Origin: a virus | Lineage: Duplodnaviria > Heunggongvirae > Uroviricota > Caudoviricetes | Strand: one strand, 5' to 3' | DNA length: 64,000 nt | Virus record (IMG/VR): IMGVR_UViG_3300014204_000107 | Span: 43,468-107,467 of that record | Part shown: positions 31,055 to 52,514 of the stretch, in pieces | How positions within the stretch are numbered: position 1 is the first letter of the stretch | How the letters are laid out: each line of letters starts with the position of its first letter | Program-made: the position numbers and the translations under genes | Notes under the pieces: model-generated | The model's input: only the letters and a program-made list of their open reading frames with translations | Database searches by the model: none | Told to the model about the DNA's origin: nothing

Positions 31055-32983
31055 ATGGTATTATCAATGTTAGCAAGTGTTCTGTTAGCTTTTGCTTTAA
31101 CAGCAGCACAAATTAAAATCACAGCAATTATTGTAGGATTAATCTTACTTGCAGTGTGTTACAAATGGGTCTTTTGGCTATTTGGTATAATTTTTGTACC
31201 AGAAACCAAGCGTGCATTAGTGACAAAGAAATGGGTTCTTTTCGGCACCGATAAGAGCTTGAAGTCTGGACAGGTTTTTGCAACCGGTAAACAGGCGGGT
31301 ATCCATGCAGAACTTTTACCTCCTGGTATGAAAGTTGGATATTGGCCGTGGCAATACAAAATTGAATTCCTTGACCCTGTAATTGTGCCGACTGGCAAAT
31401 TAGGTGTGGTTACAGCACGAGATGGTAAGCAACTTCCTGATGGTGTATTCTTGGCACCATATGTAGAATGCAACGACTATCAAGATGCAATTACGTTCTT
31501 AGATAATGGCGGATATCGTGGTAAACAAACCAGGATGCTATTACCAAAGACATATATTATTAATACACGAGTATTTGATGTTAGAGTTGTCGATATGGTT
31601 GTAATTCCTGAAGGCAAAGTTGGTATTGTTACCACGCAAGCAGGAACACCAATGCCAACCGGAGAAATTGCAGGCCCTATTGTGGGTGGCCACAACAGAT
31701 TCCAATTAGTGGATGAATTCACGAGATCTGGTGGTATTAAGGGTTTGCAAGAAGAAGTGCTCACGCCAGGTACATATTTGATTCATCCTGAATTTGCAAC
31801 CGTTGAAACGGTAGATATGACTCTTATTCCTGTTGGTTGGGCGGGGGTTGTTATTTCTTATGTAGGTAAGAAAGGTAATGACACATCCGGTGATGAATTC
31901 AAACATGGTAATATCGTCCTTGAAGGAGAAAAGGGTGTATGGTCAACAACTAAAGATCCGGGTAGGTATGCAATTAATCCAAAGACTACATCAGTCGTTC
32001 CTGTTCCAACTACAAACATCGTATTGAATTGGGCAGATGCGCGCACGGAGTCACATAAACTTGACCAAAACTTGTGCACCATTACAGTACGTTCAAAGGA
32101 CGGTTTTAAATTTAATTTGGACGTGTCGCAGATTATCAACATTTCAAATGTTGAAGCACCTAAGGTAATTGCACGGTTTGGAACTATTCAAAACCTTGTT
32201 ACACAGGTACTTGAACCTACAATTGGTAACTATTTCCGTAATAGTGCACAGAACTCAGATGCTATTGATTTCTTAACATCACGCGCAGAAAGGCAAATGC
32301 AAGCAAAAGAACACATCAACGCAGTACTTGACAACTATAATGTGGTTGGTGTTGATACACTTATTGGGGACATTAACCCACCGCAGGATCTTATGGATAC
32401 GTTAACTAAACGTAAGATTGCTGAACAGGAAAAAATTACATTTGGAATGCAGAAGCAGGCACAGGCAGAACGCCAAGCATATGAAAGTGCCAAATCCAAT
32501 GCAGACATGCAACCACAGATTGTGCAGGCAGAAAGAGGTGTTGATATTGCAGAAAAAATTGCTAATGCAAAAGTAAAGACTGCAACAGGGGATGCTGATT
32601 CAAAGACTATTAATGCTAAGGCAGATGCTAATGTAAGAACAGTTAATGCTGAAGCAGAAGCTACAGCTACACTTGTTGTAGGTAATGCAAAGGCAGAGGT
32701 TACAAGTAAAGTTGGTACTGCAGAAGCCGAAGTTGCAAAGAAGAAAGTCGATGCAATGGGTGAACAGAACTATGCTGGAGTATTGAAAGTTCAGTACTTT
32801 AGTGAAGCTATTAAAAGCGGTAATGTTGCTATTGTACCTAAAATCTTAGTCAATAGTGGAAATGATGGTAATGGTGGTACGGGCGATCTTGTTACTGCAT
32901 TACTTGGTGCTAAAGCCCTTGAGAGTATGGTGGATGACACCGTTGAGATTGCTGACGTTAAAGAAAAGAAATCTTCCAAATAG
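31055..32983 (+). CDS. flotillin-like SPFH/band-7 domain membrane protein with long coiled-coil/Ala-Glu-Lys-rich C-terminus
   Basis: N-terminal TM, SPFH-like core, EA-rich repeats (AEAEATATLVVGNAKAEV...). Confidence 0.45.
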   Translation: MVLSMLASVLLAFALTAAQIKITAIIVGLILLAVCYKWVFWLFGIIFVPETKRALVTKKWVLFGTDKSLKSGQVFATGKQAGIHAELLPPGMKVGYWPWQYKIEFLDPVIVPTGKLGVVTARDGKQLPDGVFLAPYVECNDYQDAITFLDNGGYRGKQTRMLLPKTYIINTRVFDVRVVDMVVIPEGKVGIVTTQAGTPMPTGEIAGPIVGGHNRFQLVDEFTRSGGIKGLQEEVLTPGTYLIHPEFATVETVDMTLIPVGWAGVVISYVGKKGNDTSGDEFKHGNIVLEGEKGVWSTTKDPGRYAINPKTTSVVPVPTTNIVLNWADARTESHKLDQNLCTITVRSKDGFKFNLDVSQIINISNVEAPKVIARFGTIQNLVTQVLEPTIGNYFRNSAQNSDAIDFLTSRAERQMQAKEHINAVLDNYNVVGVDTLIGDINPPQDLMDTLTKRKIAEQEKITFGMQKQAQAERQAYESAKSNADMQPQIVQAERGVDIAEKIANAKVKTATGDADSKTINAKADANVRTVNAEAEATATLVVGNAKAEVTSKVGTAEAEVAKKKVDAMGEQNYAGVLKVQYFSEAIKSGNVAIVPKILVNSGNDGNGGTGDLVTALLGAKALESMVDDTVEIADVKEKKSSK

Positions 32984-33034: not shown

Positions 33035-33107
33035 GCATAGGTAGATTTAATTGGTAAAATCCCTTCATTTTAGGAGGAAGATGGTGGTTCGATTCCACCT
33101 CTATGCA
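33035..33107 (+). tRNA. tRNA-Lys (anticodon UUU), no encoded CCA
   Basis: 7-bp acceptor (GCATAGG/TCTATGC), D-arm GATT/AATC with GG loop, anticodon loop AUUUUAG (U33, A37), T-arm GGTGG-TTCGATT-CCACC; N26 register ambiguous. Confidence 0.55.
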
Positions 33108-33136
33108 CAAACAATAAACAATTTAAAAACTGCACG

Positions 33137-33588: not shown

Positions 33589-33768
33589 AAGTTTCTAACA
33601 ATATGTATATCAATATTAAAATTAATTATAATATTGCGTTGATCAGCAAAACTTAATTAGACGTATTTTAACACGATCTGACAAGCTCAAAATAGAAGAT
33701 GATACCTAATACTTATTCAAATAGAACGTCGAGCATATCTAACCAAACAGTCCCAAAATCAAATTGAA

Positions 33769-37284: not shown

Positions 37285-37546
37285 CGAACAAATAGCTGAA
37301 TTAGAGCAGTTAAAAGAGGAGCTTGAAGAGTTAGAATATTGGATAACGCAACCAATAGAACGAATACTTAAAGAAGCCCCATTAAGAATGCTTGAAACCT
37401 TTTTACAAAGTTGTATTGATGATGCGGAATATGAAATATGTGCACCCATAAGTAAAGCAATTAATTATAGAAAAGAAGGCAAGCCGTTTACAGTAACAGC
37501 AAAAGAAAATAAGCACGAATATGAAGTATCAACCGTTGTTTCTTAG
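37268..37546 (+). CDS. small hypothetical protein
   Basis: ORF. Confidence 0.35.
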   Translation: MKQLNNEQIAELEQLKEELEELEYWITQPIERILKEAPLRMLETFLQSCIDDAEYEICAPISKAINYRKEGKPFTVTAKENKHEYEVSTVVS

Positions 37547-37928
37547 CTTTAAACAAAGCAGAAAAGCATATAATTTAATAGATTTTCTTATTAAAGATAT
37601 GGAATCTGATATATGGTACTATTCAAAATGGAATGGTATTCCGGATTGCCGGGTATCTAAAAGCTGGATAGATAATGAACTGCAAGGCAGTTATAAAAAG
37701 ATAAAATTTAGCTTTTGGCCGCCGACTAAAATGGAAATATTAGCACGGGAATTAAATAATATGCTTAAAATAGAAGATATGAAAATATTTAGAAAAATAG
37801 TATTTGATGATCATCATGAAATGATCAAATGGGTAAATAACAATATTGCAACCGTGCAAATAGTGCAAATAATAAGAACATATCACAATTATGAATATGA
37901 ATTATTTTATTATGAACTACCGCAATAA
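37521..37928 (+). CDS. hypothetical protein
   Basis: ORF. Confidence 0.4.
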   Translation: MKYQPLFLSFKQSRKAYNLIDFLIKDMESDIWYYSKWNGIPDCRVSKSWIDNELQGSYKKIKFSFWPPTKMEILARELNNMLKIEDMKIFRKIVFDDHHEMIKWVNNNIATVQIVQIIRTYHNYEYELFYYELPQ

Positions 37929-38274: not shown

Positions 38275-39180
38275 ATGACAACAACAGAATTAAAAACTAT
38301 TTTATCTAATCATAAATTATGGTTAAATGGTAAAAAAAATGGAGTTTGTGCCGATTTAGGAGGTGTTGATTTAAGCGGTGCTAATTTAAGCAATGCTAAT
38401 TTAAGATATGCTAATTTACGCGGTGCTAATTTAAGCTATGCTAATTTAAGATGTGCTAATTTAAGCGGTGCTAATTTAAGCGGTGCTAATTTAAGCAATG
38501 CTAATTTACGCGGTGCTAATTTAAGCAATGCTAATTTAAGCAATGCTAATTTACGCGGTGCTGATTTAAGCGGTGCTGATTTAAGCGATGCTGATTTAAG
38601 CAATGCTGATTTAAGCAATGCTGATTTAAGCAATGCTGATTTAAGCAATGCTGATTTAAGCAATGCTGATTTAAGCAATGCTGATTTAAGCAATGCTAAT
38701 TTAAGCGGTGCTAATTTAAGCGGTGCTAATTTAGGCGGTGCTGATTTAAGCGGTGCTAATTTACGCGGTGCTAATTTACGCGGTGCTAATTTAAGATATA
38801 CTAATTTAAGCGGTGCTAATTTAAGCAATGCTAATTTACAAAATATTTTAATTAATGAATTATCAGCGTTCATACCATTATCGTGCCCCGAGGAAGGAAG
38901 TTTTATTGCATTTAAAACCGCGCAGAATCATATTATTAAATTATTAATACCAGAAGACGCAAAACGGAGTTCGGCAACATCATATAAATGTAGAGCATCA
39001 AAGGCAAAAGTACTTGAAATTAGTGATGAACTATCAAGCATACAATCTGATTATGATAACAACTTTGTCTATGCTGTTGGTGAAACAATTGAAGTAGATA
39101 ATTTTGATGAGTGTAGATGGAATGAATGCTCAACTGGAATACACTTTTTTATGTCTAAAGAACTTGCAAGGCAATATTAA
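38275..39180 (+). CDS. pentapeptide-repeat protein (about 35 A[ND]L[SR]xA repeats) with C-terminal globular domain
   Basis: Tandem pentapeptide repeats; N-terminal [13 protein letters not shown] shared with 15698. Confidence 0.65.
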
Positions 39181-40348: not shown

Positions 40349-40665
40349 TGGTAAAAGCAGAGCTACATGGTGAGTTAATAACACAAACAGAAAAAGCAAT
40401 CCTGTTTGAAATAGCAATGATTTCATATTGTAATTATAGTGAAGATGCATTACATATTATAAGTATGGATACATGTCATATATATCTTGCACCACAATGG
40501 ATAGCACTCAAACTATTAGATGACCATACGCTATTTAAATTAGAATTTTTTAAAACCCACCCAAAATTTCTTATAGATTGCAATCTTAATATATGGCCAG
40601 AAGTACCAATATGGTTTGCAGACCAACTATTAAATAAAAACAATAAACAACAAAACAATGGATAA
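40348..40665 (+). CDS. small protein of TEKA family (TEKAILFEIAMISY)
   Basis: Motif. Confidence 0.4.
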   Translation: MVKAELHGELITQTEKAILFEIAMISYCNYSEDALHIISMDTCHIYLAPQWIALKLLDDHTLFKLEFFKTHPKFLIDCNLNIWPEVPIWFADQLLNKNNKQQNNG

Positions 40666-41014
40666 ATTTATATTAGTCGGCAATAGTGACATTATTAATT
40701 GTAATCACATTCGCAGATATTCTTTTAATAGTAAAGATAAAAATAAATTACAATTAACAGTATATTATACTGCAGATACATCTGATAATATCAATATACG
40801 GCAAGGCATACCAAAAGACTTATGGATTAAACACCTAATAAGGTTCTTAACTGGCGGGGATTCTTCTAAAATATATGATGTTGGTTGTGCAGCAGACGAA
40901 CTATTAAAGACTGTTAACATGATGGAAGGCCCGCCAAAAGAAACAAAACCAATAATAGCTGATACGCAAAACATAGCAGAAACCTATGTACCTGACGTAC
41001 CTATTGTGCATTAA
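40658..41014 (+). CDS. hypothetical protein
   Basis: ORF. Confidence 0.4.
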   Translation: MDKFILVGNSDIINCNHIRRYSFNSKDKNKLQLTVYYTADTSDNINIRQGIPKDLWIKHLIRFLTGGDSSKIYDVGCAADELLKTVNMMEGPPKETKPIIADTQNIAETYVPDVPIVH

Positions 41015-41016
41015 TA

Positions 41017-41268
41017 TTGCAACCGAGCATGCCACTAATACAATTTGATTTTGATAGAGTATCAGACAAGGCATTTCACGTATGTAATAATATAATATTG
41101 CATTATGTCCATGAAGTTTATTTAATGACAGTCGGCAATCGCAGAAATGATATATGGGTGCCAATAAGCCAATTGCAAGATATTAATATTTGGATGATTA
41201 ATGAACTATCAGCAGACATATCAGCTTGGCTAGCAGAAAGGCTTATAAAGAATATACCACTAATTTAA
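41017..41268 (+). CDS. small protein of TEKA/WxPxSQL family (SDKAF…DIWVPISQLQDIN…WLAERLI)
   Basis: Motif shared with 41510. Confidence 0.4.
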   Translation: MQPSMPLIQFDFDRVSDKAFHVCNNIILHYVHEVYLMTVGNRRNDIWVPISQLQDINIWMINELSADISAWLAERLIKNIPLI

Positions 41269-41281
41269 ATCAAGCAAACAT

Positions 41282-41488
41282 ATGTACAATAACGTAAAAT
41301 TAGGGCTAACGGAAGTGCAAGCAGCAAATATCCTAAAGAATATGGGATATAAAATAGAAATATATAAATATCCTAATGCGGAAAACCATTATGTATTTAA
41401 AGACTCTAATGGTGAAGAGCATACAGTGCAAACACTATTCGATAAAGTATTCTATAATTTCCTGCTTAACAATATGAAAGCAGAATAG
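41282..41488 (+). CDS. small hypothetical protein
   Basis: ORF. Confidence 0.35.
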   Translation: MYNNVKLGLTEVQAANILKNMGYKIEIYKYPNAENHYVFKDSNGEEHTVQTLFDKVFYNFLLNNMKAE

Positions 41489-41509
41489 CAATCGAGCAGA
41501 CCTAACATT

Positions 41510-41758
41510 ATGGCATACATAACTATTAATTATAGTATAGAAACGGACCTGGCATATAAAGTATATACTAGCATCTTTGTATTTATTAAAAAAGCAACCT
41601 ATTTTAAATATTTATTGCCAAACCACGAAGATATATGGATACCCAAAAGCCAATTAAAAAATATAAATACGTCTAATGAAGCAAAAATAATTCAAGCAAT
41701 AATAACAGATTGGTTGGCAGAAAAGCTAATAGCAGATTATAACCTTGCAGCAAAATAG
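41510..41758 (+). CDS. small protein of TEKA/WxPKSQL family (ETDLAY…DIWIPKSQLKNIN…WLAEKLI)
   Basis: Motif. Confidence 0.4.
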   Translation: MAYITINYSIETDLAYKVYTSIFVFIKKATYFKYLLPNHEDIWIPKSQLKNINTSNEAKIIQAIITDWLAEKLIADYNLAAK

Positions 41759-41809
41759 CTTATGATTGTCAAGCAGAAATTGCAACCAAGCAATCCTAAT
41801 AACTAATAT

Positions 41810-42103
41810 ATGCAATGGTTTGTTTATATAGTAGAATGCAATGATAATACCTTATATACAGGTATAACTAACAATATAGAGCTGCGCATACAAAAGCATA
41901 ATACAAAAAAAGGAGCAAAATATACGAAAGCAAGACTGCCAGTCAAACTAATATATAATCAAGAGTGTGCAAGCAAATCGGCAGCCCTAAAAGAAGAATA
42001 TAGAATCAAGCAACTAACAAAAAAGGAAAAGCTAGAATTAATAAGAAATTGCAACCAAACAACCCCAATATATGAACAAGGCAGTACAAATAACAATTAT
42101 TGA
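41810..42103 (+). CDS. GIY-YIG nuclease-domain protein (small stand-alone, YIVECNDNTLYTGITNN…R…H…KGAKYT)
   Basis: GIY…YIG core with conserved R, H, and KGAKYT. Confidence 0.55.
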   Translation: MQWFVYIVECNDNTLYTGITNNIELRIQKHNTKKGAKYTKARLPVKLIYNQECASKSAALKEEYRIKQLTKKEKLELIRNCNQTTPIYEQGSTNNNY

Positions 42104-42290
42104 AACAGAAGACTGGACATCCAGCACTCCAATAGGTAGGTATATTGTTATAGTAAAAGTAACACCAGAATTTATGCAGGAGCCAGAACATATTGTGAGC
42201 CACAGTGAAAAGGCAGAATATATAGCGCAAGAAATTAAAGAAGAATTCTTAAAGAAATTGCAACCGAGCAAGCCAACTACCACATATTAA
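42072..42290 (+). CDS. small hypothetical protein
   Basis: ORF. Confidence 0.35.
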   Translation: MNKAVQITIIETEDWTSSTPIGRYIVIVKVTPEFMQEPEHIVSHSEKAEYIAQEIKEEFLKKLQPSKPTTTY

Positions 42291-43005
42291 TAAAAACCTA
42301 GAAATTGCAACCAAACTATATAATTTGGAAATTGCAACCAATTACCTAATATACAATAAGGTAATAATATTATAGCAAATAACTAAATACCAAGAAATTG
42401 CAACCAACAAGAATTTGCAACCAACCAACTAATCCATACCGTATAAATGACAGTAGGTAAATAGTACAAATAGCCTGCTCCAGAAATTGCAACCAACGTA
42501 AAAATCAATAGGTTGGGGAGACGGAGGACGGTGTCTGGCTTGACTGTGCATCTTTATTCAAGCGTCTACCTAATAAGACCACGACCGACCTAACCATTTA
42601 AATTGCATAACCAGTTTTAGCTGTTACGCATATAGCGGTAACCACATAGCAATAATGTCGCGGATGCATATTATTCTTCCAGCCTAATTGCAGTAGGTAG
42701 CTCGTGTTTCTTCCATATGTTATATTATACGCTATATCTATTACACTAAATAGAACGTAATAGTTTGCGTTATTGCTATAGGTGTCCTGCACCCATCCCG
42801 GAATAGATTATTCCTCGGTGTCTGCACATTGCGTTAAGTTGCTTTAATTGTGTTAGAAAACTGCGTCTTTCATACTGTTGTTCTATTGTATAAGGTAAAG
42901 GTAGGAAGAATAGTTGAGATACACAAATTTAATTTTATGCTTCGTTAGTGTTGCTTGGTGTAGGTTTATATAGTGCTATAGAAGCATAGCAGATAGATTT
43001 GGTAG

Positions 43006-43045
43006 AGTGGTATATTATTCCTATATTTGTATATAACAAAATTAA
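43006..43045 (+). promoter_or_regulatory. variant of the recurring TTTGGTAG…TTT…TATAACAA promoter/leader motif
   Basis: Motif similarity; precedes ATG 43054. Confidence 0.35.
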
Positions 43046-43053
43046 CCAAACAA

Positions 43054-43293
43054 ATGAAAGTAAAAGTTGAAGAAACGGGTAAACCCGTATTGATCCCAAT
43101 GTGTGATATGGAACCTGGGCAAATGGCAGTTGTTGTTGACGATATGGCCGGCGACAATAACAGAGACTCTATTATACTGCGCACAGAGAAAGCAATAGCT
43201 GACTTTATGGACCCTTTGCTCGATTGGGAAATAGACTGTGAATTCAAAGTGAGAATCCTTCCCAAAGGCACCAAGATTGAAATTACTGCATAA
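43054..43293 (+). CDS. small protein, tandem paralogue family member 1 (MKVKVEETGKPVLIPM…ILRTEKAIADF…LPKGTKIEITA)
   Basis: Four tandem paralogues. Confidence 0.4.
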   Translation: MKVKVEETGKPVLIPMCDMEPGQMAVVVDDMAGDNNRDSIILRTEKAIADFMDPLLDWEIDCEFKVRILPKGTKIEITA

Positions 43294-43310
43294 CAAATTA
43301 ACCCAAACAA

Positions 43311-43550
43311 ATGAAAGTAAAAATTAAAGGAGAGGCTAAACCCGCATTGATCCCAATGTATGAAATGGTGCGTGGCCAGATCGCTAGAATTGTTGATACG
43401 TGCGCCGATAGTTATAACGGTTCTATCGTATTACGCAGTGAGAAAACTATTGTCGATTTAAAATCTCATCACGTAGATTGGTGCATGACATGCACTTATA
43501 AAGTAGAACTGTTGCCAGCCGGCACGGTCATTGAATTAACCGTTGAATAA
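43311..43550 (+). CDS. tandem paralogue 2
   Basis: Shared MKVKIKGEAKPALIPM…VLRSEKTIVDL…LLPAGTVIELTV. Confidence 0.4.
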   Translation: MKVKIKGEAKPALIPMYEMVRGQIARIVDTCADSYNGSIVLRSEKTIVDLKSHHVDWCMTCTYKVELLPAGTVIELTVE

Positions 43551-43558
43551 AAAAAAAT

Positions 43559-43798
43559 ATGAAAGCAAAAATAGTAAAAGAGGCTGCGCCTGCAGTCATG
43601 AAGATGAATGAACTTAAACCAGGACAGGTCGCTAAGATCAATGACCCTGATATTGGCCCCCACCATATGGGCAAAGTTATACTACGGACACAGCATTCAT
43701 TGGTTGATTTAGATGATCCAATTATAGATTTCTGCTTAGGAGCCGGTTGGGATGTAGAATTGCTCCCCGCTGGGACGGTTATCAAAATTACAGTCTAA
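43559..43798 (+). CDS. tandem paralogue 3
   Basis: Shared motifs. Confidence 0.4.
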   Translation: MKAKIVKEAAPAVMKMNELKPGQVAKINDPDIGPHHMGKVILRTQHSLVDLDDPIIDFCLGAGWDVELLPAGTVIKITV

Positions 43799-43866
43799 CT
43801 GATAAACGCAAGAAAAATGAATACAATCAAAGTTAAAAGACCCAAGGAACTTGTGCGGGACAAAAA

Positions 43867-44064
43867 ATGAAAATTGGCAAATTTGGCCAGATTAAAGAGG
43901 GATTTTATAAAGACCATATTGTATTGCGTGCTGATAGCAGCATATGGATTGATTTGACAGACCCGGAATACAATTGGACTAATGGCATTACATATCCTGT
44001 TGACGCACGGATATTGCTGGTTGGCACCACACTTGAGTTGGTTATTGGTAATAGTGCCATCTAA
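43867..44064 (+). CDS. tandem paralogue 4 (divergent, shorter)
   Basis: HIVLRADSSIWIDL…LLVGTTLELVIG resembles the family C-terminus. Confidence 0.35.
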   Translation: MKIGKFGQIKEGFYKDHIVLRADSSIWIDLTDPEYNWTNGITYPVDARILLVGTTLELVIGNSAI

Positions 44065-45034
44065 GCATTAGTGCTAATTCGATTTTTTATTTTTGGAAGA
44101 CTATATATTATAGAATAGGGTATCTGTGGTATTATACCAGCGCACCTTAATGCTAAGCTATCGTTAAGGGTTAATGCGGGTACATAAAGAGGCTAGCGAA
44201 TGCCATTACGCTATATTAATGTTGCCGTAACAGCGGGTGCGTTAGTCCTGCTCGGGCCGTTGGTAGACAGGCGAAACGTTTTTTGTAGTGTGGCGGCTAT
44301 AAATCGTATGGGGCCAGACTTAGATACGCTGGTTGCAGATCTAAGCATATACCACATTTAATGGGTGGCTTTATTATTTGGTAAGCAGGGTTGCCAGCCT
44401 TGTATGTTGCATATAATCATTGAAATATGCTAGTGTAACTCATGCAAGCAATGAGGTTTAGGTATAGCATGGCTACCAACTGTGTATGTTGCGCGTATAA
44501 CATTTATAAAACGTGATAGTTTGCATGTTTGCTCGATAAAACATTGCATATACATTGCGCTAGCTGCATGAATTTTGAATCATCGGCTAGATATTTCTGT
44601 CTTTGGTCGTTGCATAATATGCTATAAAATACTATACACAATAGATTTATAGTTTAGAAGGGGTATTGGATATATTTTCGGCAAAATTTCTTAAAAAATA
44701 TGATAATAAAAACTCAGGGCGCGCGGATATTTTTACTCATATAAGATAGTTCCTATGCTCGATTTGAATAGTATTTAGTGTGCGCATATAGCCGATATGG
44801 GAAAATAATCAAATAATTTCATTTCGCGGGATTTTTAATACTGTTGGTATATGTGCTTCGGTATTTGCTGGATTGCTACAGATATTTAGAAAAGTTTGAT
44901 AAAAAAATGCCATGGTCGATAAAAATTAATTCGAGCGTTCTTATTGCGTTATATAATAGAATCGAAGTTATGGTTGGCGCGTGGCTGTATGCGTACGCAT
45001 GTGCGTGTACATATAATATAGGTGCACCAAAAAT

Positions 45035-45085
45035 AATTTGGTATTCTGGTATAATTTACTTACCTTTATTCTATAACAATAAAAG
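45035..45085 (+). promoter_or_regulatory. recurring promoter/leader motif (TTTGGTAT…CTTACCTTTATTCTATAACAATAAA)
   Basis: Motif; precedes ATG 45095. Confidence 0.45.
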
Positions 45086-45341: not shown

Positions 45342-45412
45342 TTAGATCTGCTCGACGTTCTTTTTATAACTATATTGGTATATAAACAAGTATGAACGTC
45401 GAGCAGATCTAA
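45342..45412 (+). repeat. 19-bp perfect inverted repeat (TTAGATCTGCTCGACGTTC / GAACGTCGAGCAGATCTAA) with 33-nt loop; the right arm matches the 21-nt motif GAACGTCGAGCAGATCTAACC
   Basis: Read directly; starts one base after stop codon of 45095-45341. Confidence 0.6.
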
Positions 45413-48330: not shown

Positions 48331-50958
48331 ATGAACAATCCTATCACAAAGAAAGGTACCTTTAAGTACGCAATTTCTGACTTTTGGTTATCCGAAAGCA
48401 CAAAGCGTATTTTAGAAGACTATGAACCGAAGGAGCATGCCTTTTATGTACGGGGTATGATTAAGAAAGCGGTGGAAGACTTTATTCGTATTATCAATAA
48501 CGGTGATGGCTCCGTGAAGGTTACATATAGGACTGATGGCAGTGAAACGTCATACAGTTCGGCCAACGCTATTGAATGTAAGAGTGTATGCGTCCAGTCT
48601 GATATATTTGACTTAGATGTTACCGTAGGTCTTGCTTTACATGAGGCAATGCACATCCGTGATACTATCTTTGTCACTATCAACCCATTGTTCCAATCCT
48701 TTCTTTTAAAGCATGATTGTAGTGATTTAATTATTGCTCATTTAGTTGATGCATATATCGACTTCCTGCATGATGAAATGATGTATGACTATGCTTATAT
48801 TGCAAGGAAGCTGACTGGGCAGTCAATGTCATATTTTGACATTACCAATGCAGTTACTGCCGCAATTACCAAGCACACTAATAAAGTTACTTTAAATAGC
48901 ATGTTCCAGAGTAGTGGTTATGTAAGAATGCGTAACTGTTACGAAAGAATAAACAAGCTTTCCAATGGCAAAGAGCTGTTGCCAAAGATTCTTAAAATAA
49001 CTGGCGGCATACTTAATTGGATCGAGGATCGTAGGATTGACCATAAAGCTAGTGTTATTGCTCCCGGCTATGTTGGCTATTATGATGCATTATACGATAA
49101 GTATTTCTTTGCACCAAACATGCGTGATATTGTAAAAAATAACATTACAAACGTGCCAACCCTTAAGCATTACGAATTATACATCACAAACTTATGGGAA
49201 TCGCAGAAATATGTTAACGAAGTCCCAGCATTAGGTGATATTGTTAAAGCCATTGATCTTCCGAATATTGGCAGGCTTGAAGACACTATTGATTCATTAG
49301 CTCTCACCTTCGAAGTAATGGCAATCATTCTCGAAGAAATGCTTTCACGTAAGAAGAAAGAAGAACAGGAGCCTGCAGAAAAAGAAACGAAGAAAGATAA
49401 GCTTGGAGAAAGCAAAGATGGCAAACGTGAAGAGAACGACAGTAATGACAATACTGAAATCGATAACGAAAATAGCGAAGACGGCCCTTCTAAAGAAGAT
49501 GATGACGAAAGCGAACCAAGCAATAAAGACAACAAATTCGATACAGAGATTGAAGAAGCTGGCGATGACAATGTTACTGCTGACGAGTTTGACGAAAACA
49601 ACGAAGACGCCCCAGAAGATAACTACGAAGACGCCCCAGAAGATAACTACGAAGATAACTACGAAGGTAACGACGAAAGTCCCGACCATACAGAAAACGA
49701 TGGTAGTGAGGTAGAACATACTGATGATGATACTTCTGGCACTGAAACTGCTGAAGACGATATTACTGATGCAGTAGTTCCCGACAATGATACTGAAAAT
49801 AGCAATACTACTGAAGGAGACAACGGCGATGAATCAAATAGTGCCGGTTCCAATGGTGGTAATGATTTAGACAGTTTTCCTGCTGAAGACAACAATATCA
49901 TTGATGACGAAGCAGACAAAATGCTTGGAGAGCAAAAGAAATTTGCTGAAGGTGATATCGAGCGTTCTGACGTTAATGAAATGGAGGAGAAGATTATTAA
50001 TGCTACCGCTACTGGCGATGTGGATTTGAGAGTATCAAAGGATGGTGCCAACCGCAATGTTAGTTATGTTTGCAATAACTTTAACAAGCAGAACGTAGAG
50101 ATGCTCAGTAATATGTGCGAATGTGTTAGTATGTGGACAACAGAAGACTCACGCGAGCAGCAAAATATCCTGAAAGCGCTGAAATATGGTGAAAAACTTG
50201 CACAGTTGATTACTATTCGCAACGAAGACAGGGAACTGGTTAATCCTAACCAGGAAAGCGGTAAAGTATTCAAAAGGCACCTTTACAAAATTGCTGGACA
50301 TAATAGTAAGGTTTTCTATAGCGTTCTCAGTGAAAACTTTGAACCCGTAACTATGCACATTTCAATTGACGCAAGTGGTTCAATGGCCTCTGGGTCAAGC
50401 TTTAGCAATGCTATTTTTATGGCCGTTGCTTTAGCAGTAGTTGCTGACAAGACTAAGAATGTTGAAGTTGTTATTTCATTCCGCGGTGAATCTTCTGGTA
50501 AATACAGAAGCGCATTTACTTCGGGTGCTGAATACAGCACTAAAGGAAAGATTCCTTTTATGTTGATTGCATATGATAGCCGCGTTGATAAACTTTCTAA
50601 AATCAAGCAAGTATTTAGGTATATCCATGCTAACAGTTACACTCCTGAAGGACTTTGTTTTGCCGCCATTTTGGAAGAACTCATTGAATACAGCAAAGAT
50701 TCAAGGTCTTACTTTATCAACATTAGTGATGGTATGCCGTGTTTCTACGAATATGCTGGGCAGAAGGCGTTAGAACATACAAGGAAACAAGTCGATAAAA
50801 TGCGCAAGGCAGGCATCAATATTATGGCATTTTTTATTGGCAATGAATATGGGCTTTCTAATTTTAAATATATGTATGGTAAGGATGCTACCAATATAGA
50901 CGTTACAAATTTGAGAAGACTTGCTAATAACATTAACCAATTATTATTGAAAAAATAG
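48331..50958 (+). CDS. CobT-like protein: N-terminal domain, long acidic low-complexity linker (EDAPEDNYEDAPEDNYEDNYE), C-terminal vWA with MIDAS (ISIDASGSM)
   Basis: Architecture typical of cobaltochelatase CobT-like vWA partners of MoxR/CobS AAA+ ATPases. Confidence 0.5.
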   Translation: MNNPITKKGTFKYAISDFWLSESTKRILEDYEPKEHAFYVRGMIKKAVEDFIRIINNGDGSVKVTYRTDGSETSYSSANAIECKSVCVQSDIFDLDVTVGLALHEAMHIRDTIFVTINPLFQSFLLKHDCSDLIIAHLVDAYIDFLHDEMMYDYAYIARKLTGQSMSYFDITNAVTAAITKHTNKVTLNSMFQSSGYVRMRNCYERINKLSNGKELLPKILKITGGILNWIEDRRIDHKASVIAPGYVGYYDALYDKYFFAPNMRDIVKNNITNVPTLKHYELYITNLWESQKYVNEVPALGDIVKAIDLPNIGRLEDTIDSLALTFEVMAIILEEMLSRKKKEEQEPAEKETKKDKLGESKDGKREENDSNDNTEIDNENSEDGPSKEDDDESEPSNKDNKFDTEIEEAGDDNVTADEFDENNEDAPEDNYEDAPEDNYEDNYEGNDESPDHTENDGSEVEHTDDDTSGTETAEDDITDAVVPDNDTENSNTTEGDNGDESNSAGSNGGNDLDSFPAEDNNIIDDEADKMLGEQKKFAEGDIERSDVNEMEEKIINATATGDVDLRVSKDGANRNVSYVCNNFNKQNVEMLSNMCECVSMWTTEDSREQQNILKALKYGEKLAQLITIRNEDRELVNPNQESGKVFKRHLYKIAGHNSKVFYSVLSENFEPVTMHISIDASGSMASGSSFSNAIFMAVALAVVADKTKNVEVVISFRGESSGKYRSAFTSGAEYSTKGKIPFMLIAYDSRVDKLSKIKQVFRYIHANSYTPEGLCFAAILEELIEYSKDSRSYFINISDGMPCFYEYAGQKALEHTRKQVDKMRKAGINIMAFFIGNEYGLSNFKYMYGKDATNIDVTNLRRLANNINQLLLKK

Positions 50959-50965
50959 CAAATAT

Positions 50966-51012
50966 ATTTGGTGAGCTTATTATTTCTTCCTACCTTTATT
51001 TTGTAACAATTA
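50966..51012 (+). promoter_or_regulatory. recurring promoter/leader motif
   Basis: ATTTGGTGAGC…TTCTTCCTACCTTTATTTTGTAACAATTAAA before ATG 51024. Confidence 0.45.
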
Positions 51013-51023
51013 AATAAAACACC

Positions 51024-52514
51024 ATGTCAAAAGAATCAACATTAGTATTTCCTGTATCAACGGGTAATGCTGTATGGTTTATAAGCGACGACAGAAAAAC
51101 TATATTAGATGTCGTTGATCCCGGACAACAGAGAAAAGCAAAAGCCGCCGAGGCAGCTGGACAAGTTGGAATACTTGGGTGGCGCGGAAAAGTTGAAAGA
51201 GAAGTTAAAGTTAAATACATTGACAGAAGCGATCTTCGATTGTATTGGTGTGAAAATTTCACTGATTGGTTTTCGGCCATTTCATCTGATGCTGCATTAC
51301 TCTCTAATTTTAATAACAAATACAGCATTGCCAACTATTTAACTGACGGTGATGTTGATACGATGCTTAAGTTGGTTGACAACCATACAGCGGTAGTTGT
51401 ATCAGGGTTATCCGGCAATTCACAGCCGAAATCACAGAAAAAAGGTAGACCTGCTAAGAAAGCAAAGGTTTCAAATTCTGCCGGTACTGCTGCACAGATG
51501 AGAAATCAAGTGGCTGTAAGTGCTACAGTAAGTCCCGAAGATACAGCAACAGAAACTGAAGAGCTGGCGGAAGTAGCTCCTGCAGAACCGGCCAAGGCTA
51601 TCGACGTTGACTTAAGCTGTGAGAACATGGCTCAGCGACTTGCAAATTTTGCAATGGTAAAGCCCGAAGAGCTTATCATTAGCGATCTTAAATGGAAATT
51701 TTTAATCCGTTCGGTATTACGCGGAAAAAACATATTGGTAACTGGCCAGTCTGGCACAGGGAAGACCAAATCGATTAATTCAGTTGCAAAGCTGATGGTT
51801 GAAGATCACCCGTTATTCATTATTCCTTGCGGAAATACAACTGATGCAAAGAGTATTTTATTGGGCAATACCAAATACAGCCCCGAGAGAGGCACTTACC
51901 TTAGCGAATCTGAATTTGTGAAAGCAATCCAGACGCCCAATGCAATTGTATATCTTGACGAGTTTACGCGTTTACACCCGGATGGGCAGAATATATTAAT
52001 GACAGTGCTTGACCACACACAGAGGGAACTCGTATTGGACGAAGCTGAGGGATGTCCTACTATTAAAGTAGCACCTGGAGTGTGTTTCATGGCTACGGCA
52101 AATATTGGGAAACAGTATAGCGCTACAAGATCCATTGACCGTGCATTGTTAGACAGATTCAATGTTACTTTCGAAATGGAGCCATTAGAGATCATGCAGG
52201 AACTTGAACTTATCTTCATGGAATACGGCAAGCCCGCTATTAAGATGAGGAATGAAATTTGCAAGGTGCTTGACGTTATCGACTCCATTAGGAAAGACTA
52301 CAATAACGAAAATACTGAGCTTACAACCTTTATTAGCACAAGGCCAGTGCTTGAAATTGCTGGACTGTTGCTTGATGGGTTTAGCCCTCTTGAATGCATT
52401 GAAGTATGTATTTATCCGTTATACAGCGACGATGGTGGAACCGAAAGTGAACGTGCATTGGTAAAGAAGATAGTACAAAAAGCAGGCTTTGCTCCTGCTG
52501 ATCAAACGATATAA
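51024..52514 (+). CDS. CobS/MoxR-like AAA+ ATPase (Walker A GQSGTGKTKS, Walker B YLDEFTRLHPDGQNILMTVLD) with ~200-aa N-terminal extension
   Basis: AAA_5/MoxR-type motifs; adjacent to vWA partner. Confidence 0.55.
   Translation: MSKESTLVFPVSTGNAVWFISDDRKTILDVVDPGQQRKAKAAEAAGQVGILGWRGKVEREVKVKYIDRSDLRLYWCENFTDWFSAISSDAALLSNFNNKYSIANYLTDGDVDTMLKLVDNHTAVVVSGLSGNSQPKSQKKGRPAKKAKVSNSAGTAAQMRNQVAVSATVSPEDTATETEELAEVAPAEPAKAIDVDLSCENMAQRLANFAMVKPEELIISDLKWKFLIRSVLRGKNILVTGQSGTGKTKSINSVAKLMVEDHPLFIIPCGNTTDAKSILLGNTKYSPERGTYLSESEFVKAIQTPNAIVYLDEFTRLHPDGQNILMTVLDHTQRELVLDEAEGCPTIKVAPGVCFMATANIGKQYSATRSIDRALLDRFNVTFEMEPLEIMQELELIFMEYGKPAIKMRNEICKVLDVIDSIRKDYNNENTELTTFISTRPVLEIAGLLLDGFSPLECIEVCIYPLYSDDGGTESERALVKKIVQKAGFAPADQTI

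What the first reader, a model, noticed from the sequence alone, without database searches (positions are those of the whole stretch)
41015..42496. Iteron cluster GAAATTGCAACC(A/G)A x9, partly embedded in coding sequence
Nine direct copies of a 14-mer lie within 1.5 kb. Four are inside or at the ends of small genes; the copies at 41775, 42045 and 42253 lie in coding DNA (translated as EIATK, RNCNQ or KLQPS depending on frame). Five are packed into the 210-nt gap after 42290, with spacings of about 26-88 nt. This is the classic signature of iterons bound by a replication initiator or a transcriptional regulator. The reuse of the same 14-mer inside different reading frames of neighbouring paralogous small genes is notable.
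Basis: seen in the sequence. Interest (0 to 1): 0.65.

Follow-up and report, generated by a model that had tools for sequence, protein, structure and literature searches.

The report
Strand-specific 14-bp control element cluster
A short DNA word (GAAATTGCAACCAA) is repeated nine times, always on the coding strand, at the ends of a few small genes and in a gene-free stretch of an uncultured ~299-kb phage of Bacteroidota; it is a real, selected recognition site, more likely a gene-expression signal than a classical replication iteron, but no tool here could show its function.

Summary
The repeat cluster is real. There are 7 exact copies of GAAATTGCAACCRA, one copy with 1 mismatch and one with 2, all on the + strand within 41013-42496, against 0 expected. 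No further copy with 2 or fewer mismatches to the A-form 14-mer and an intact TTGCAACC core occurs in 83.5 kb of this ~299-kb phage. Conservation stops sharply at 14-15 bp and the flanks are unrelated, so the word itself is under selection.

Only two copies lie in coding DNA, both in C-terminal tails. Three of the four copies outside the gap end 2-20 nt before a start codon (chance P about 7e-4). Five more are stacked at irregular spacings (27, 66, 17, 72 nt) at the head of a 736-nt ORF-free region. That region also holds a G-rich island and an orphan host-type promoter pointing back at the array.

Classical iteron-origin features are not met:
- no regular phasing of the repeats
- no DnaA box
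- no initiator gene

My best reading (0.38) is a phage-specific promoter core. GAAATTGC sits where the Bacteroidota -7 box sits, and the variable R falls at +1.

Rivals:
- asymmetric operator or stoperator
- origin iterons
- an RNA-level target

No relatives exist for comparison. Interest is moderate.

The parts
41013..41026 (+). Copy 1, AATATTGCAACCGA (2 mismatches). It overlaps the stop codon of 40658..41014 and ends 2 nt before ATG 41029 (79-aa gene A1).
41484..41498 (+). Decayed copy AATAGCAATCGAGCA, 11 nt before ATG 41510 (82-aa gene A2, a paralogue of A1). It merges with a second motif, CGAGCAGACCTAA.
   Evidence: (family D4)
41776..41789 (+). Copy 2, exact. Intergenic, 20 nt before ATG 41810 (GIY-YIG gene).
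42045..42058 (+). Copy 3, exact. It lies inside the non-domain C-terminal tail of the GIY-YIG gene and ends 13 nt before ATG 42072 (72-aa gene C).
42254..42267 (+). Copy 4, exact (G at position 13), in the last 12 codons of gene C. The stretch 42257-42275 matches 41016-41034 in 18 of 19 nt.
42301..42496 (+). Array of five copies in ORF-free DNA: 42301, 42328, 42394, 42411 (1 mismatch) and 42483. The region is A-rich with C>G, and is the most C-skewed + strand-coded 100 nt of the window.
42291..43026 (.). 736-nt ORF-free region. All three stop-codon types occur in all frames, there is no Rfam match, and predicted folding is no better than shuffles.
42509..42538 (+). G-rich island (16 G in 30 nt) that starts 13 nt after the last copy. 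It is among the five most G-rich 30-mers in 83.5 kb.
42896..42927 (-). Orphan host-type (Bacteroidota sigma-A-like) promoter on the minus strand: TTTG-N20-TACCTTTA, with the family's usual leader and an ATG followed by only 6 codons. It points leftward at the array.
42291..42341 (-). Candidate terminator for that leftward transcript. A 15-pair hairpin is formed by copies 42328 and 42301 (palindromic TTGCAA plus CCAAA/TTTGG). It is followed on the minus strand by GGUUUUUAU and ends at the stop codon of gene C.
42998..43029 (+). Perfect host-type promoter TTTG-N20-TATATTTG, which drives four tandem 79-aa paralogues (43054-44064). It marks the right end of the control region.
31790..31801 (+). 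Outlying looser copy GAATTTGCAACC(GT) inside the Band-7 gene. It may be chance.
37842..37853 (+). Outlying looser copy AATATTGCAACC(GT) inside gene 37521..37928. It may be chance.

Best explanation
The 14-mer is a selected, strand-specific recognition element that controls gene expression in this phage. Most likely it is the core of a phage-specific promoter.

Shown. The word is sharply bounded: A-GAAATTGCAACC-R-A. It is always on the coding strand. It sits 2-20 nt before the start codons of three neighbouring genes (A1, GIY-YIG, C), and a decayed copy sits before a fourth (A2). It is stacked five-fold at the head of an ORF-free region.

Inferred. In the register used by Bacteroidota promoters, GAAATTGC occupies the -7 box (-12 to -5). 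It matches the flavobacterial variant TAnnTTGY in 5 of 6 specified positions. AACC then occupies -4 to -1, and the one variable 3' position (A or G) is the +1 purine. Each of these genes would get its own short-leader transcript, with leaders of 4, 22 and 15 nt. The five stacked starts would transcribe rightward into the non-coding region across the G-rich island, converging with a leftward host-type promoter at 42927-42896.

The T of the box is replaced by G or A, and no -33 element is present.
For: - The word is real and unique. Searches give 0 expected copies. One search finds no other copy with 2 or fewer mismatches and an intact core in 83.5 kb.
- It is under selection rather than recently duplicated. 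Information content drops to background immediately outside the 14-15 bp. The pieces between copies resemble nothing upstream beyond what shuffles give.
- It is tied to expression. All 9 copies (11 with the looser consensus) are on the strand that carries nearly all genes.
- Three of the four copies outside the gap end 20 nt or less before a called start codon. The chance fraction per site is 0.057, so P(3 or more of 4) is about 7e-4.
- Two of the four copies outside the gap (42045, 42254) lie in the C-terminal tail of a gene, and a third (41013) overlaps the preceding gene's stop codon, although 736 nt of free non-coding DNA lies next door.
- Register fit to the Bacteroidota -7 box. The host is inferred from 15 or more TTTG-N20-TAnnTTT(G/A) promoters in the window. 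The TAnnTTGY variant at -12 to -5 is described in PMC9723704.
- The three substitutions in positions 1-12 among the nine copies fall only at positions 1, 3 and 4, which are the 'n' or weakest positions of the box. Position 13 is always a purine.
- Sequences after the copies are A/C-rich and G-poor, like the leaders of this phage's other genes.
- No canonical host-type promoter (score 9 or more) exists on the + strand between 40300 and 42997, so these genes need some other signal.
Against: - There is no -33 TTG at the expected distance.
- The box lacks the highly conserved T at its first position, so host sigma-A recognition is doubtful. No alternative factor or phage RNA polymerase was seen in the 83.5 kb.
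- A promoter class would be expected throughout a 299-kb genome, yet this one is confined to 1.5 kb of the 28% that could be read.
- Two copies are only 17 nt apart, which is awkward for two RNA polymerases and natural for a small DNA-binding protein.
- Copy 42254 and the five array copies precede no ORF.
- The predicted leader for A1 is only 4 nt.
- The fit to the box was noticed after the fact, and I estimate roughly 2% chance of such a fit.
- No transcript data and no relatives were available to test any of this.
Confidence: 0.38

Rival explanations
1. Asymmetric operator or 'stoperator' sites. A phage-encoded DNA-binding repressor binds each copy as a monomer, in one orientation relative to transcription. 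It blocks initiation or elongation into A1, GIY-YIG and C. At the five-fold array it insulates this block from the neighbouring, divergently controlled region.
For: - The word is asymmetric, 14-15 bp and sharply bounded.
- Copies lie in short intergenic spaces or gene ends, and all are oriented with transcription. This is the defining pattern of mycobacteriophage L5 stoperators (PMC9283540).
- The 17-nt spacing of copies 42394 and 42411 suits side-by-side protein binding.
- The array lies between the + strand gene block and an oppositely directed host-type promoter, where a roadblock would be useful.
Against: - No HTH, RHH or other DNA-binding protein was recognisable within +/-10 kb.
- The two local protein families that were modelled are an Sm-like barrel and a FeoA/SH3-like barrel.
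- Stoperators are spread over the whole genome, whereas these sites are confined to 1.5 kb.
- No host-type promoter overlaps any copy, so there is no obvious promoter to repress.
Confidence: 0.2
2. Iterons of a replication origin, or of another DNA-metabolism site such as a partition or packaging site. An initiator binds the five stacked copies and melts or loads at the adjacent non-coding DNA. Transcription across the G-rich island may help by forming an R-loop primer. The gene-proximal copies would serve copy-control or autoregulation.
For: - It is the only cluster in 83.5 kb.
- It abuts the head of a 736-nt ORF-free region that holds divergent promoters and a G-cluster 13 nt after the last copy.
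- The array segment is the local GC minimum (0.24).
- From my own knowledge, not checked here: short direct repeats at irregular spacing occur in some phage origins, such as lactococcal phage ori regions and P4 ori/crr, and promoter plus unwinding region is the design of T4 oriF/oriG and the T7 primary origin.
Against: - The conserved unit is 14-15 bp, not 17-22 bp, and the spacings of 17-72 nt are not helically phased.
- There is no DnaA box.
- AT-richness is not exceptional: 0.23 GC also occurs at 40701.
- No initiator, helicase, primase or partition gene was found in 83.5 kb.
- GC skew does not change sign here.
- Placement of copies just before start codons, inside coding tails, is unexplained by an origin role.
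Confidence: 0.22
3. An RNA-level element. The word acts in the mRNA, next to the start codons of A1, GIY-YIG and C. It would be the target of one of two things. The first is a leftward non-coding RNA made from the orphan promoter at 42927-42896, which would carry five complementary copies (UUGGUUGCAAUUUC). The second is an RNA-binding protein; the five local Sm-like-fold paralogues are candidates, with the array acting as sponge or decoy.
For: - Strict sense-strand orientation.
- Copies lie within about 35 nt upstream of start codons, inside the expected ribosome footprint.
- A bona fide host-type promoter on the minus strand has no gene to serve.
- A hairpin plus U-run would end its transcript exactly after the fifth anti-copy, at the stop codon of gene C.
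- 41016-41034, which spans the A1 start codon, matches 42257-42275 in 18 of 19 nt.
Against: - In the predicted fold of the leftward RNA the anti-copies are mostly paired with each other. Mean unpaired probability is 0.15-0.35, against 0.39 overall.
- Distance to the start codon is variable (2-20 nt).
- The minus-strand promoter could be a dead inverted duplicate.
- No expression data are available.
Confidence: 0.12
4. A functionless relic: junction sequence copied along with duplicated gene cassettes, with no present role.
For: The region is a block of small orphan genes with paralogue families. Four gene-proximal copies share a longer 19-nt similarity (family D4).
Against: - A1 and A2 are only 33% identical as proteins, yet six copies of the 14-mer are identical in all 14 positions and a seventh differs only at the R position.
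- Flanks carry no information.
- The pieces between array copies are no more similar to the cassettes than shuffles are.
- All copies keep one orientation.
Confidence: 0.03

Closest known systems
Iterons of plasmid and phage replication origins (for example P1 oriR/incA, lambda ori, P4 ori/crr, lactococcal phage ori regions). Cited from my own knowledge.
   Same: Several direct copies of one short word in one orientation, clustered in or next to non-coding DNA. Extra copies lie near genes and could serve control.
   Different: The unit is 14-15 bp rather than 17-22 bp. Spacing is irregular and unphased. There is no DnaA box, no marked AT-rich unwinding element and no adjacent initiator gene. 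Copies are tied to start codons.
Stoperators and operators of Cluster A mycobacteriophages (L5 gp71; PMC9283540)
   Same: An asymmetric 13-14-bp word in short intergenic spaces, with orientation strictly correlated with the direction of transcription. It is read as a single unit rather than as a palindrome.
   Different: Stoperators number more than 20 and are spread over the genome. These sites are confined to 1.5 kb and include a five-fold stack with no genes. No repressor homologue was found. This phage is a large, apparently lytic phage of Bacteroidota.
Start-associated sequences (SAS) of Cluster K mycobacteriophages (PMC3203893)
   Same: A 13-bp asymmetric repeat in one orientation, immediately upstream of start codons of non-structural genes, sometimes overlapping the upstream gene's stop codon. 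Function is unknown.
   Different: SAS lie at a fixed 3-7 bp from the ATG and contain a Shine-Dalgarno core. Here the distance is 2-20 nt, the host phylum does not use Shine-Dalgarno sequences (PMC6847099, abstract seen), and six of the nine copies (42254 and the five in the array) precede no called gene.
PeSL (promoter-early stem-loop) cassettes of T4-type phages (PMC2839356, PMC4122927; titles and abstracts seen)
   Same: A repeated regulatory word at the junctions of small orphan genes in a variable block of a large phage. It could also serve as a recombination substrate.
   Different: PeSLs are composite promoter-terminator motifs, per the title of PMC4122927; that they are longer than this word is my recollection, not read here. 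Here only 14-15 nt are conserved and no hairpin is shared by the copies.
Bacteroidota promoters: -33 TTTG / -7 TAnnTTTG, and the TAnnTTGY variant 'SM5' of Flavobacterium psychrophilum (PMC9723704)
   Same: GAAATTGC fits TAnnTTGY in 5 of 6 specified positions. With the box at -12 to -5, the variable purine of the word falls at +1. Variation among copies falls on the unspecified positions.
   Different: The conserved T at the first box position is G or A. There is no -33 element. Four further invariant bases (AACC) follow the box. The phage's many canonical host-type promoters look quite different (TACCTTTA).
Tandem early promoters at the leading end of phage genomes (T7 A1-A3, N4 P1-P3). Cited from my own knowledge.
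   Same: Several identical promoter-like words are stacked within about 200 bp, all firing one way. This promoter class is confined to one small region.
   Different: In those phages the stacked promoters are followed directly by early genes. Here they are followed by about 500 nt of non-coding DNA and then a separate host-type promoter.

Membership tests
Iteron-type replication origin | Three or more direct repeats of one word in one orientation | tested here: met
   9 copies, all on the + strand
Iteron-type replication origin | Repeat unit of about 17-22 bp at regular, helically phased spacing | tested here: not met
   Conservation covers 14-15 bp only. Spacings are 47, 27, 66, 17 and 72 nt in the array and 209-763 nt among the gene-proximal copies.
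Iteron-type replication origin | Adjacent AT-rich unwinding element | tested here: inconclusive
   GC is 0.24 at 42301-42400, but 0.23-0.25 also occurs at 40601-40800 and 41601. The DNA after the array is GC-richer (0.46).
Iteron-type replication origin | DnaA boxes or other host-initiator sites | tested here: not met
   No TTATCCACA or TTWTCCACA anywhere in the window
Iteron-type replication origin | Cognate initiator gene next to or around the repeats | tested here: not met
   No Rep, O, alpha, helicase or primase family in the window or flanks by Pfam or PHROGs. Local small proteins are orphans whose modelled folds are not initiator-like.
Iteron-type replication origin | Initiator binding and origin activity | not testable with these tools
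   Needs EMSA or DAP-seq, marker-frequency analysis or 2D gels
Bacteroidota sigma-A-type promoter | -7 box TAnnTTTG (or the variant TAnnTTGY) | tested here: inconclusive
   GAAATTGC matches 3 of 6 positions of TAnnTTTG and 5 of 6 of TAnnTTGY. The conserved first T is missing.
Bacteroidota sigma-A-type promoter | -33 TTTG 19-21 nt upstream of the box | tested here: not met
   Only copy 42328 has a TTG at the right distance, and that TTG is the core of the preceding copy.
Bacteroidota sigma-A-type promoter | Upstream of and co-oriented with genes, at a plausible leader length | tested here: met
   Predicted leaders are 4, 22 and 15 nt for A1, GIY-YIG and C. Median 5' UTR in F. psychrophilum is 24 nt.
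Stoperator-type asymmetric operator (L5 gp71) | Asymmetric 13-14-bp site in short intergenic spaces, orientation tied to transcription | tested here: met
Stoperator-type asymmetric operator (L5 gp71) | Many sites dispersed over the genome | tested here: not met
   Confined to 1.5 kb of the 83.5 kb examined. The remaining 72% of the genome was not available.
Stoperator-type asymmetric operator (L5 gp71) | Cognate repressor with an HTH domain | tested here: not met
   No HTH family hit near the cluster. Only two of the local protein families could be modelled.
Start-associated sequence (Cluster K SAS) | Fixed position 3-7 bp upstream of the start codon | tested here: not met
   Distances are 2, 13 and 20 nt (11 nt for the decayed copy). 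Six of the nine copies (42254 and the five in the array) precede no called gene; the only ATG downstream of the array copies opens a 5-codon ORF at 42447.
PeSL regulatory cassette | Composite unit of promoter plus stem-loop terminator | tested here: not met
   No conserved flank and no shared hairpin

The most novel reading that the evidence does not exclude
The word works in RNA. A leftward, roughly 600-nt non-coding RNA is made from the orphan host-type promoter at 42927-42896 and ends at the hairpin and U-run formed by two of the copies. It carries five tandem anti-copies of the 14-mer. It would act as a multi-seed antisense regulator, or as a sponge together with the five local Sm-like-fold proteins, on the translation-initiation regions of three or four neighbouring phage genes that carry the sense copy. 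That would be a phage-built post-transcriptional circuit in a phylum that I recall largely lacks Hfq and whose mRNAs lack Shine-Dalgarno sequences.
Probability: 0.1. Interest if true: 0.75.

Novelty: new member of a known kind. Interest (0 to 1): 0.4.

Why it matters
Almost nothing is known about how large phages of Bacteroidota organise transcription or replication. This window gives one clear class of host-type promoters and, separately, a second word of about 22 bits confined to one control region.

If the word is a promoter core, it defines a second, factor-dependent transcription class. It would also give a handle for finding that factor.

If it is an origin, it would be the first mapped origin candidate in this kind of phage.

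Either way, the 1.9-kb segment 41000-43030 is a compact, directly testable control region for the few experiments that would settle it: 5'-end mapping, strand-specific RNA-seq and read-depth profiling. Without relatives or expression data it remains an unassigned cis-element of a familiar general kind.

Tried and rejected
1. Comparison with relatives. There was no DNA match in GenBank phages. IMG/VR held no relatives of the 327-aa or 875-aa neighbours. The 81-aa neighbour hit only unrelated phages that lack the word. The small proteins match only themselves. The nearest loci with a homologous vWA-AAA gene pair (L183, L185; 34-38% identity) have no copy and no analogous cluster. The other assemblies of this phage are identical across the cluster.

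2. Public-collection scans for two copies of the word close together. Both the metagenome and the genome scans returned only unrelated tandem coding repeats and one rDNA-like contig. The single-copy scan of IMG/VR gave only chance hits.

3. The array as decayed gene cassettes. Rejected: the inter-copy pieces match the upstream genes no better than shuffles do.

4. The ORF-free region as a structured RNA or a recoded gene. There was no Rfam hit. Fold z-scores were -0.7 and -0.6. All stop-codon types occur in all frames, and there are no small ORFs of more than 10 codons.

5. Sigma-70 -35/-10 reading with TTGCAA as the -35 hexamer. Spacing to TA-rich boxes varies from 2 to 16 nt, and the promoter scan gave no more hits than shuffles.

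6. Sigma-54 reading with TTGCA as the -12 element. There is no GG at -24 and no upstream conservation (by inspection).

7. A common hairpin, as in N4 promoters or terminators. None found.

8. CRISPR-repeat mimic, integron attC and Chi-like site. All were considered from memory and dropped, because the unit is too short or too long, the spacing is irregular, and no partner genes are present.

9. A third upstream word, ATATATATTA. It is not enriched: 46 matches against 36.8 expected.

10. Literature search for the core word returned only primer noise.
Full report
**What is there**

The pattern GAAATTGCAACCRA occurs seven times exactly, at 41776, 42045, 42254, 42301, 42328, 42394 and 42483. All are on the + strand, and none were found in 100 dinucleotide-preserving shuffles. 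With mismatches allowed, two more copies join: 42411 GAATTTGCAACCAA and 41013 AATATTGCAACCGA. A decayed tenth copy, AATAGCAATCGAGCA, lies at 41484 (family D4). Nine of the thirteen + strand TTGCAACC cores in the window lie in this 1.5 kb.

An information profile of the nine copies shows conservation rising and falling abruptly. It covers one A, then GAAATTGCAACC, then R, then A. Background levels begin immediately outside. The pieces between the array copies are no more similar to the upstream genes than shuffled sequence is. The flanking paralogous genes are only 33% identical as proteins. The word is therefore maintained by selection and was not carried along by a recent duplication.

**Where it comes from**

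Exact-protein look-ups place the window in a contig of about 299 kb that was assembled independently in ENA, JGI and Logan data. Those assemblies are identical across the cluster. Nearly all genes are on the + strand.

The window holds 15 or more copies of a long promoter module, TTTG-N20-TA(C/T)(C/A)TTTA plus a TATAACAATAAA-type leader. This is the -33/-7 architecture of Bacteroidota (PMC9723704), so the host is very probably a member of that phylum.

I extended the window by about 9.5 and 10 kb with two further look-ups. In the resulting 83.5 kb no other copy with 2 or fewer mismatches to the A-form 14-mer keeps the TTGCAACC core. A looser consensus, RAWWTTGCAACC, gives 11 matches, all on the + strand, against 0.21 expected. 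The two extra ones (31790, 37842) lie inside genes and may be chance.

The remaining 72% of the genome could not be reached. Look-ups accept only window proteins, and the phage is absent from the scannable collections.

**Anatomy**

- Copy 41013 overlaps the stop codon of 40658..41014 and ends 2 nt before the ATG of A1 (41029..41268).
- The decayed copy ends 11 nt before A2 (41510..41758), a paralogue of A1.
- Copy 41776 lies in the 51-nt gap before the GIY-YIG gene (41810..42103) and ends 20 nt before its ATG.
- Copy 42045 lies in the GIY-YIG C-terminal tail, beyond the Pfam domain, and ends 13 nt before the ATG of the 72-aa gene C (42072..42290).
- Copy 42254 lies in the last 12 codons of C.

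So three of the four copies outside the gap end within 20 nt of a called start codon. The chance fraction per position is 0.057, giving P of about 7e-4.

Five more copies follow at 42301-42496, at spacings of 27, 66, 17 and 72 nt. They sit at the head of a 736-nt stretch (42291-43026) with these properties:
- no ORF in any code
- no Rfam match
- no better-than-random fold on either strand

The array is A-rich with C>G and is the most C-skewed + strand-coded segment of the window. A G-rich island (16 G in 30 nt) starts 13 nt after the last copy.

There is a full member of the host-type promoter family on the minus strand (TTTG at 42927-42924, TACCTTTA at 42903-42896). It has the usual leader and an ATG followed by only six codons, and it points leftward at the array. 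About 65 nt to its right, a perfect TTTG-N20-TATATTTG promoter (42998) drives four tandem 79-aa paralogues rightward.

Copies 42301 and 42328, with the CCAAA/TTTGG between them, form a 15-pair hairpin. On the minus strand this is followed by GGUUUUUAU, which ends at the stop codon of gene C. It is a candidate terminator for the leftward transcript.

**Testing the iteron-origin reading**

Direct repeats in one orientation are present. The other defining features fail or are undecided:
- The unit is 14-15 bp and the spacing is unphased.
- There is no DnaA box.
- The local GC minimum (0.24) is matched elsewhere nearby.
- GC skew does not turn.
- No initiator, helicase, primase or partition gene appears in 83.5 kb.

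An origin role also does not explain why copies sit just before start codons inside coding tails when free non-coding DNA lies next door.

In favour of an origin, or another DNA-metabolism site, are three points: the uniqueness of the cluster, the large non-coding region with divergent promoters, and the G-cluster, which could nucleate an R-loop from rightward transcripts. I keep this reading at 0.22.

**Testing the expression-signal readings**

No canonical host-type promoter (score 9 or more) lies on the + strand between 40300 and 42997, so these genes need another signal.

In F. psychrophilum a promoter class has the box TAnnTTGY at -12 to -5 in place of TAnnTTTG (PMC9723704). GAAATTGC matches that box in five of six specified positions. 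In that register AACC is -4 to -1, and the only variable 3' position of the word (A in seven copies, G in two) is +1, a purine. The three substitutions in positions 1-12 among the nine copies fall at positions 1, 3 and 4, the unspecified or weakest ones. Predicted leaders are 4, 22 and 15 nt. This is my best single mechanism, at 0.38.

Several points count against it:
- The conserved first T of the box is missing.
- There is no -33 element.
- Two copies are 17 nt apart.
- The class is confined to one region.
- The fit was found after the fact.

The nearest alternative is an asymmetric operator of the L5 stoperator kind. Those are 13-bp sites in short intergenic spaces whose orientation is tied to transcription (PMC9283540). 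I put this at 0.20. It is weakened by the clustering and by the lack of any recognisable DNA-binding protein.

Cluster K start-associated sequences (PMC3203893) look similar but sit at a fixed 3-7 bp from the ATG, which is not the case here. PeSL cassettes (PMC2839356, PMC4122927) share the context of small orphan genes but are composite promoter-terminator units, and no such second element is conserved here.

**RNA-level reading**

The orphan leftward promoter, the terminator-like hairpin at the far end of the array and the strict sense orientation suggest a leftward RNA of about 600 nt. It would carry five anti-copies able to pair with the regions just upstream of the A1, GIY-YIG and C start codons. 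In addition, 41016-41034, which spans the A1 ATG, matches 42257-42275 in 18 of 19 nt.

Against this reading, the anti-copies are mostly paired in the predicted fold, and the promoter may be a dead inverted duplicate. I give it 0.12 and present a sharpened form as the novel case (0.10).

**Candidate readers of the word**

None was found. The 68-, 72- and 118-aa neighbours have no sequence relatives among solved structures. The 79-aa paralogues model as a FeoA/SH3-like barrel (pLDDT 84, Foldseek E = 0.07). All local small proteins are orphans.

**Verdict**

The word is a selected, strand-specific cis-element of a control region that spans roughly 41000-43030. The evidence leans towards gene-expression control (promoter core, then operator, then RNA target; together about 0.7) rather than a classical iteron origin (about 0.2).

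It is a new example of a familiar general kind, not a new kind of system. Its function cannot be settled without the rest of the genome, transcript ends or relatives. Interest is 0.4.

Noticed in passing
window 42896-42927 (minus strand): A complete member of the phage's host-type promoter family lies on the minus strand (TTTG-N20-TACCTTTA, with the usual leader and an ATG). It has only a 6-codon ORF behind it. It is the only minus-strand TACCTTTA-box member in the 83.5 kb and points at the repeat array.
   Followed up: partly
window 8500-61660 (for example 45037, 48281, 50967, 52589, 53377, 54728, 55399, 61628): There are fifteen or more copies of a roughly 55-nt promoter-plus-leader module: aaaTTTGGTAg..GAGAAATT..TACCTTTA ttcTATAACAATAAA. 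It fits the Bacteroidota -33/-7 consensus. Copies are dense from 43 to 62 kb and nearly absent from 35 to 42 kb. This indicates the host phylum and a probable early region.
   Followed up: partly
window 33725-33745, 45342-45412, 41489-41505: A second repeated word, GAACGTCGAGCA(G/T)ATCTAACC, occurs upstream of genes 33769 and 45448. At 45342-45412 it forms a perfect 19-bp inverted repeat with a 33-nt loop, right after a stop codon. CGAGCANNNCTAA with 1 mismatch or fewer gives 15 matches against 2.5 expected.
   Followed up: partly
window 26670-28118 and 33035-33108: A Ro60/TROVE-vWA protein gene lies about 5 kb from a tRNA-like gene. That gene is called tRNA by Rfam (42.6 bits), but ARAGORN could not assign an anticodon. 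It may be a Y-RNA-like partner of the Ro60 homologue.
   Followed up: no
window 38275-39180: The pentapeptide-repeat gene is length-polymorphic between assemblies of the same phage: 301 aa in the window against 276 aa in the ENA contig. This repeat block accounts for all but one of the differences from the ENA contig over the overlap compared (window 31735-52103).
   Followed up: partly
[not shown]
   Followed up: partly
window 43054-44064: Four tandem paralogues of 65-79 aa lie behind a perfect host-type promoter. They model as a small FeoA/SH3-like beta-barrel (pLDDT 84) and have no homologues outside this phage.
   Followed up: partly
window 44065-45036: A second ORF-free stretch of about 1 kb has GC up to 0.51. 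It shares one 28-nt stretch with the first ORF-free region at 82% identity (44506-44533 against 42750-42777). Its function is unknown.
   Followed up: partly
window 48331-52514; loci L183, L185: A vWA-like 875-aa protein and a MoxR-type AAA+ ATPase form a gene pair. The pair is conserved, at 34-38% identity, in other very large uncultured phage contigs (135 kb and 364 kb). Those contigs lack the 14-mer.
   Followed up: partly
locus L162 (JGI Ga0209063_1002041): An unrelated 9.9-kb contig without ORFs carries nine copies of AAAATTGCAACCCGGAAC at both ends, like spacer promoters of an rDNA unit. It shares 11 nt with the phage word, which I regard as an effect of how the scan selected hits.
   Followed up: partly
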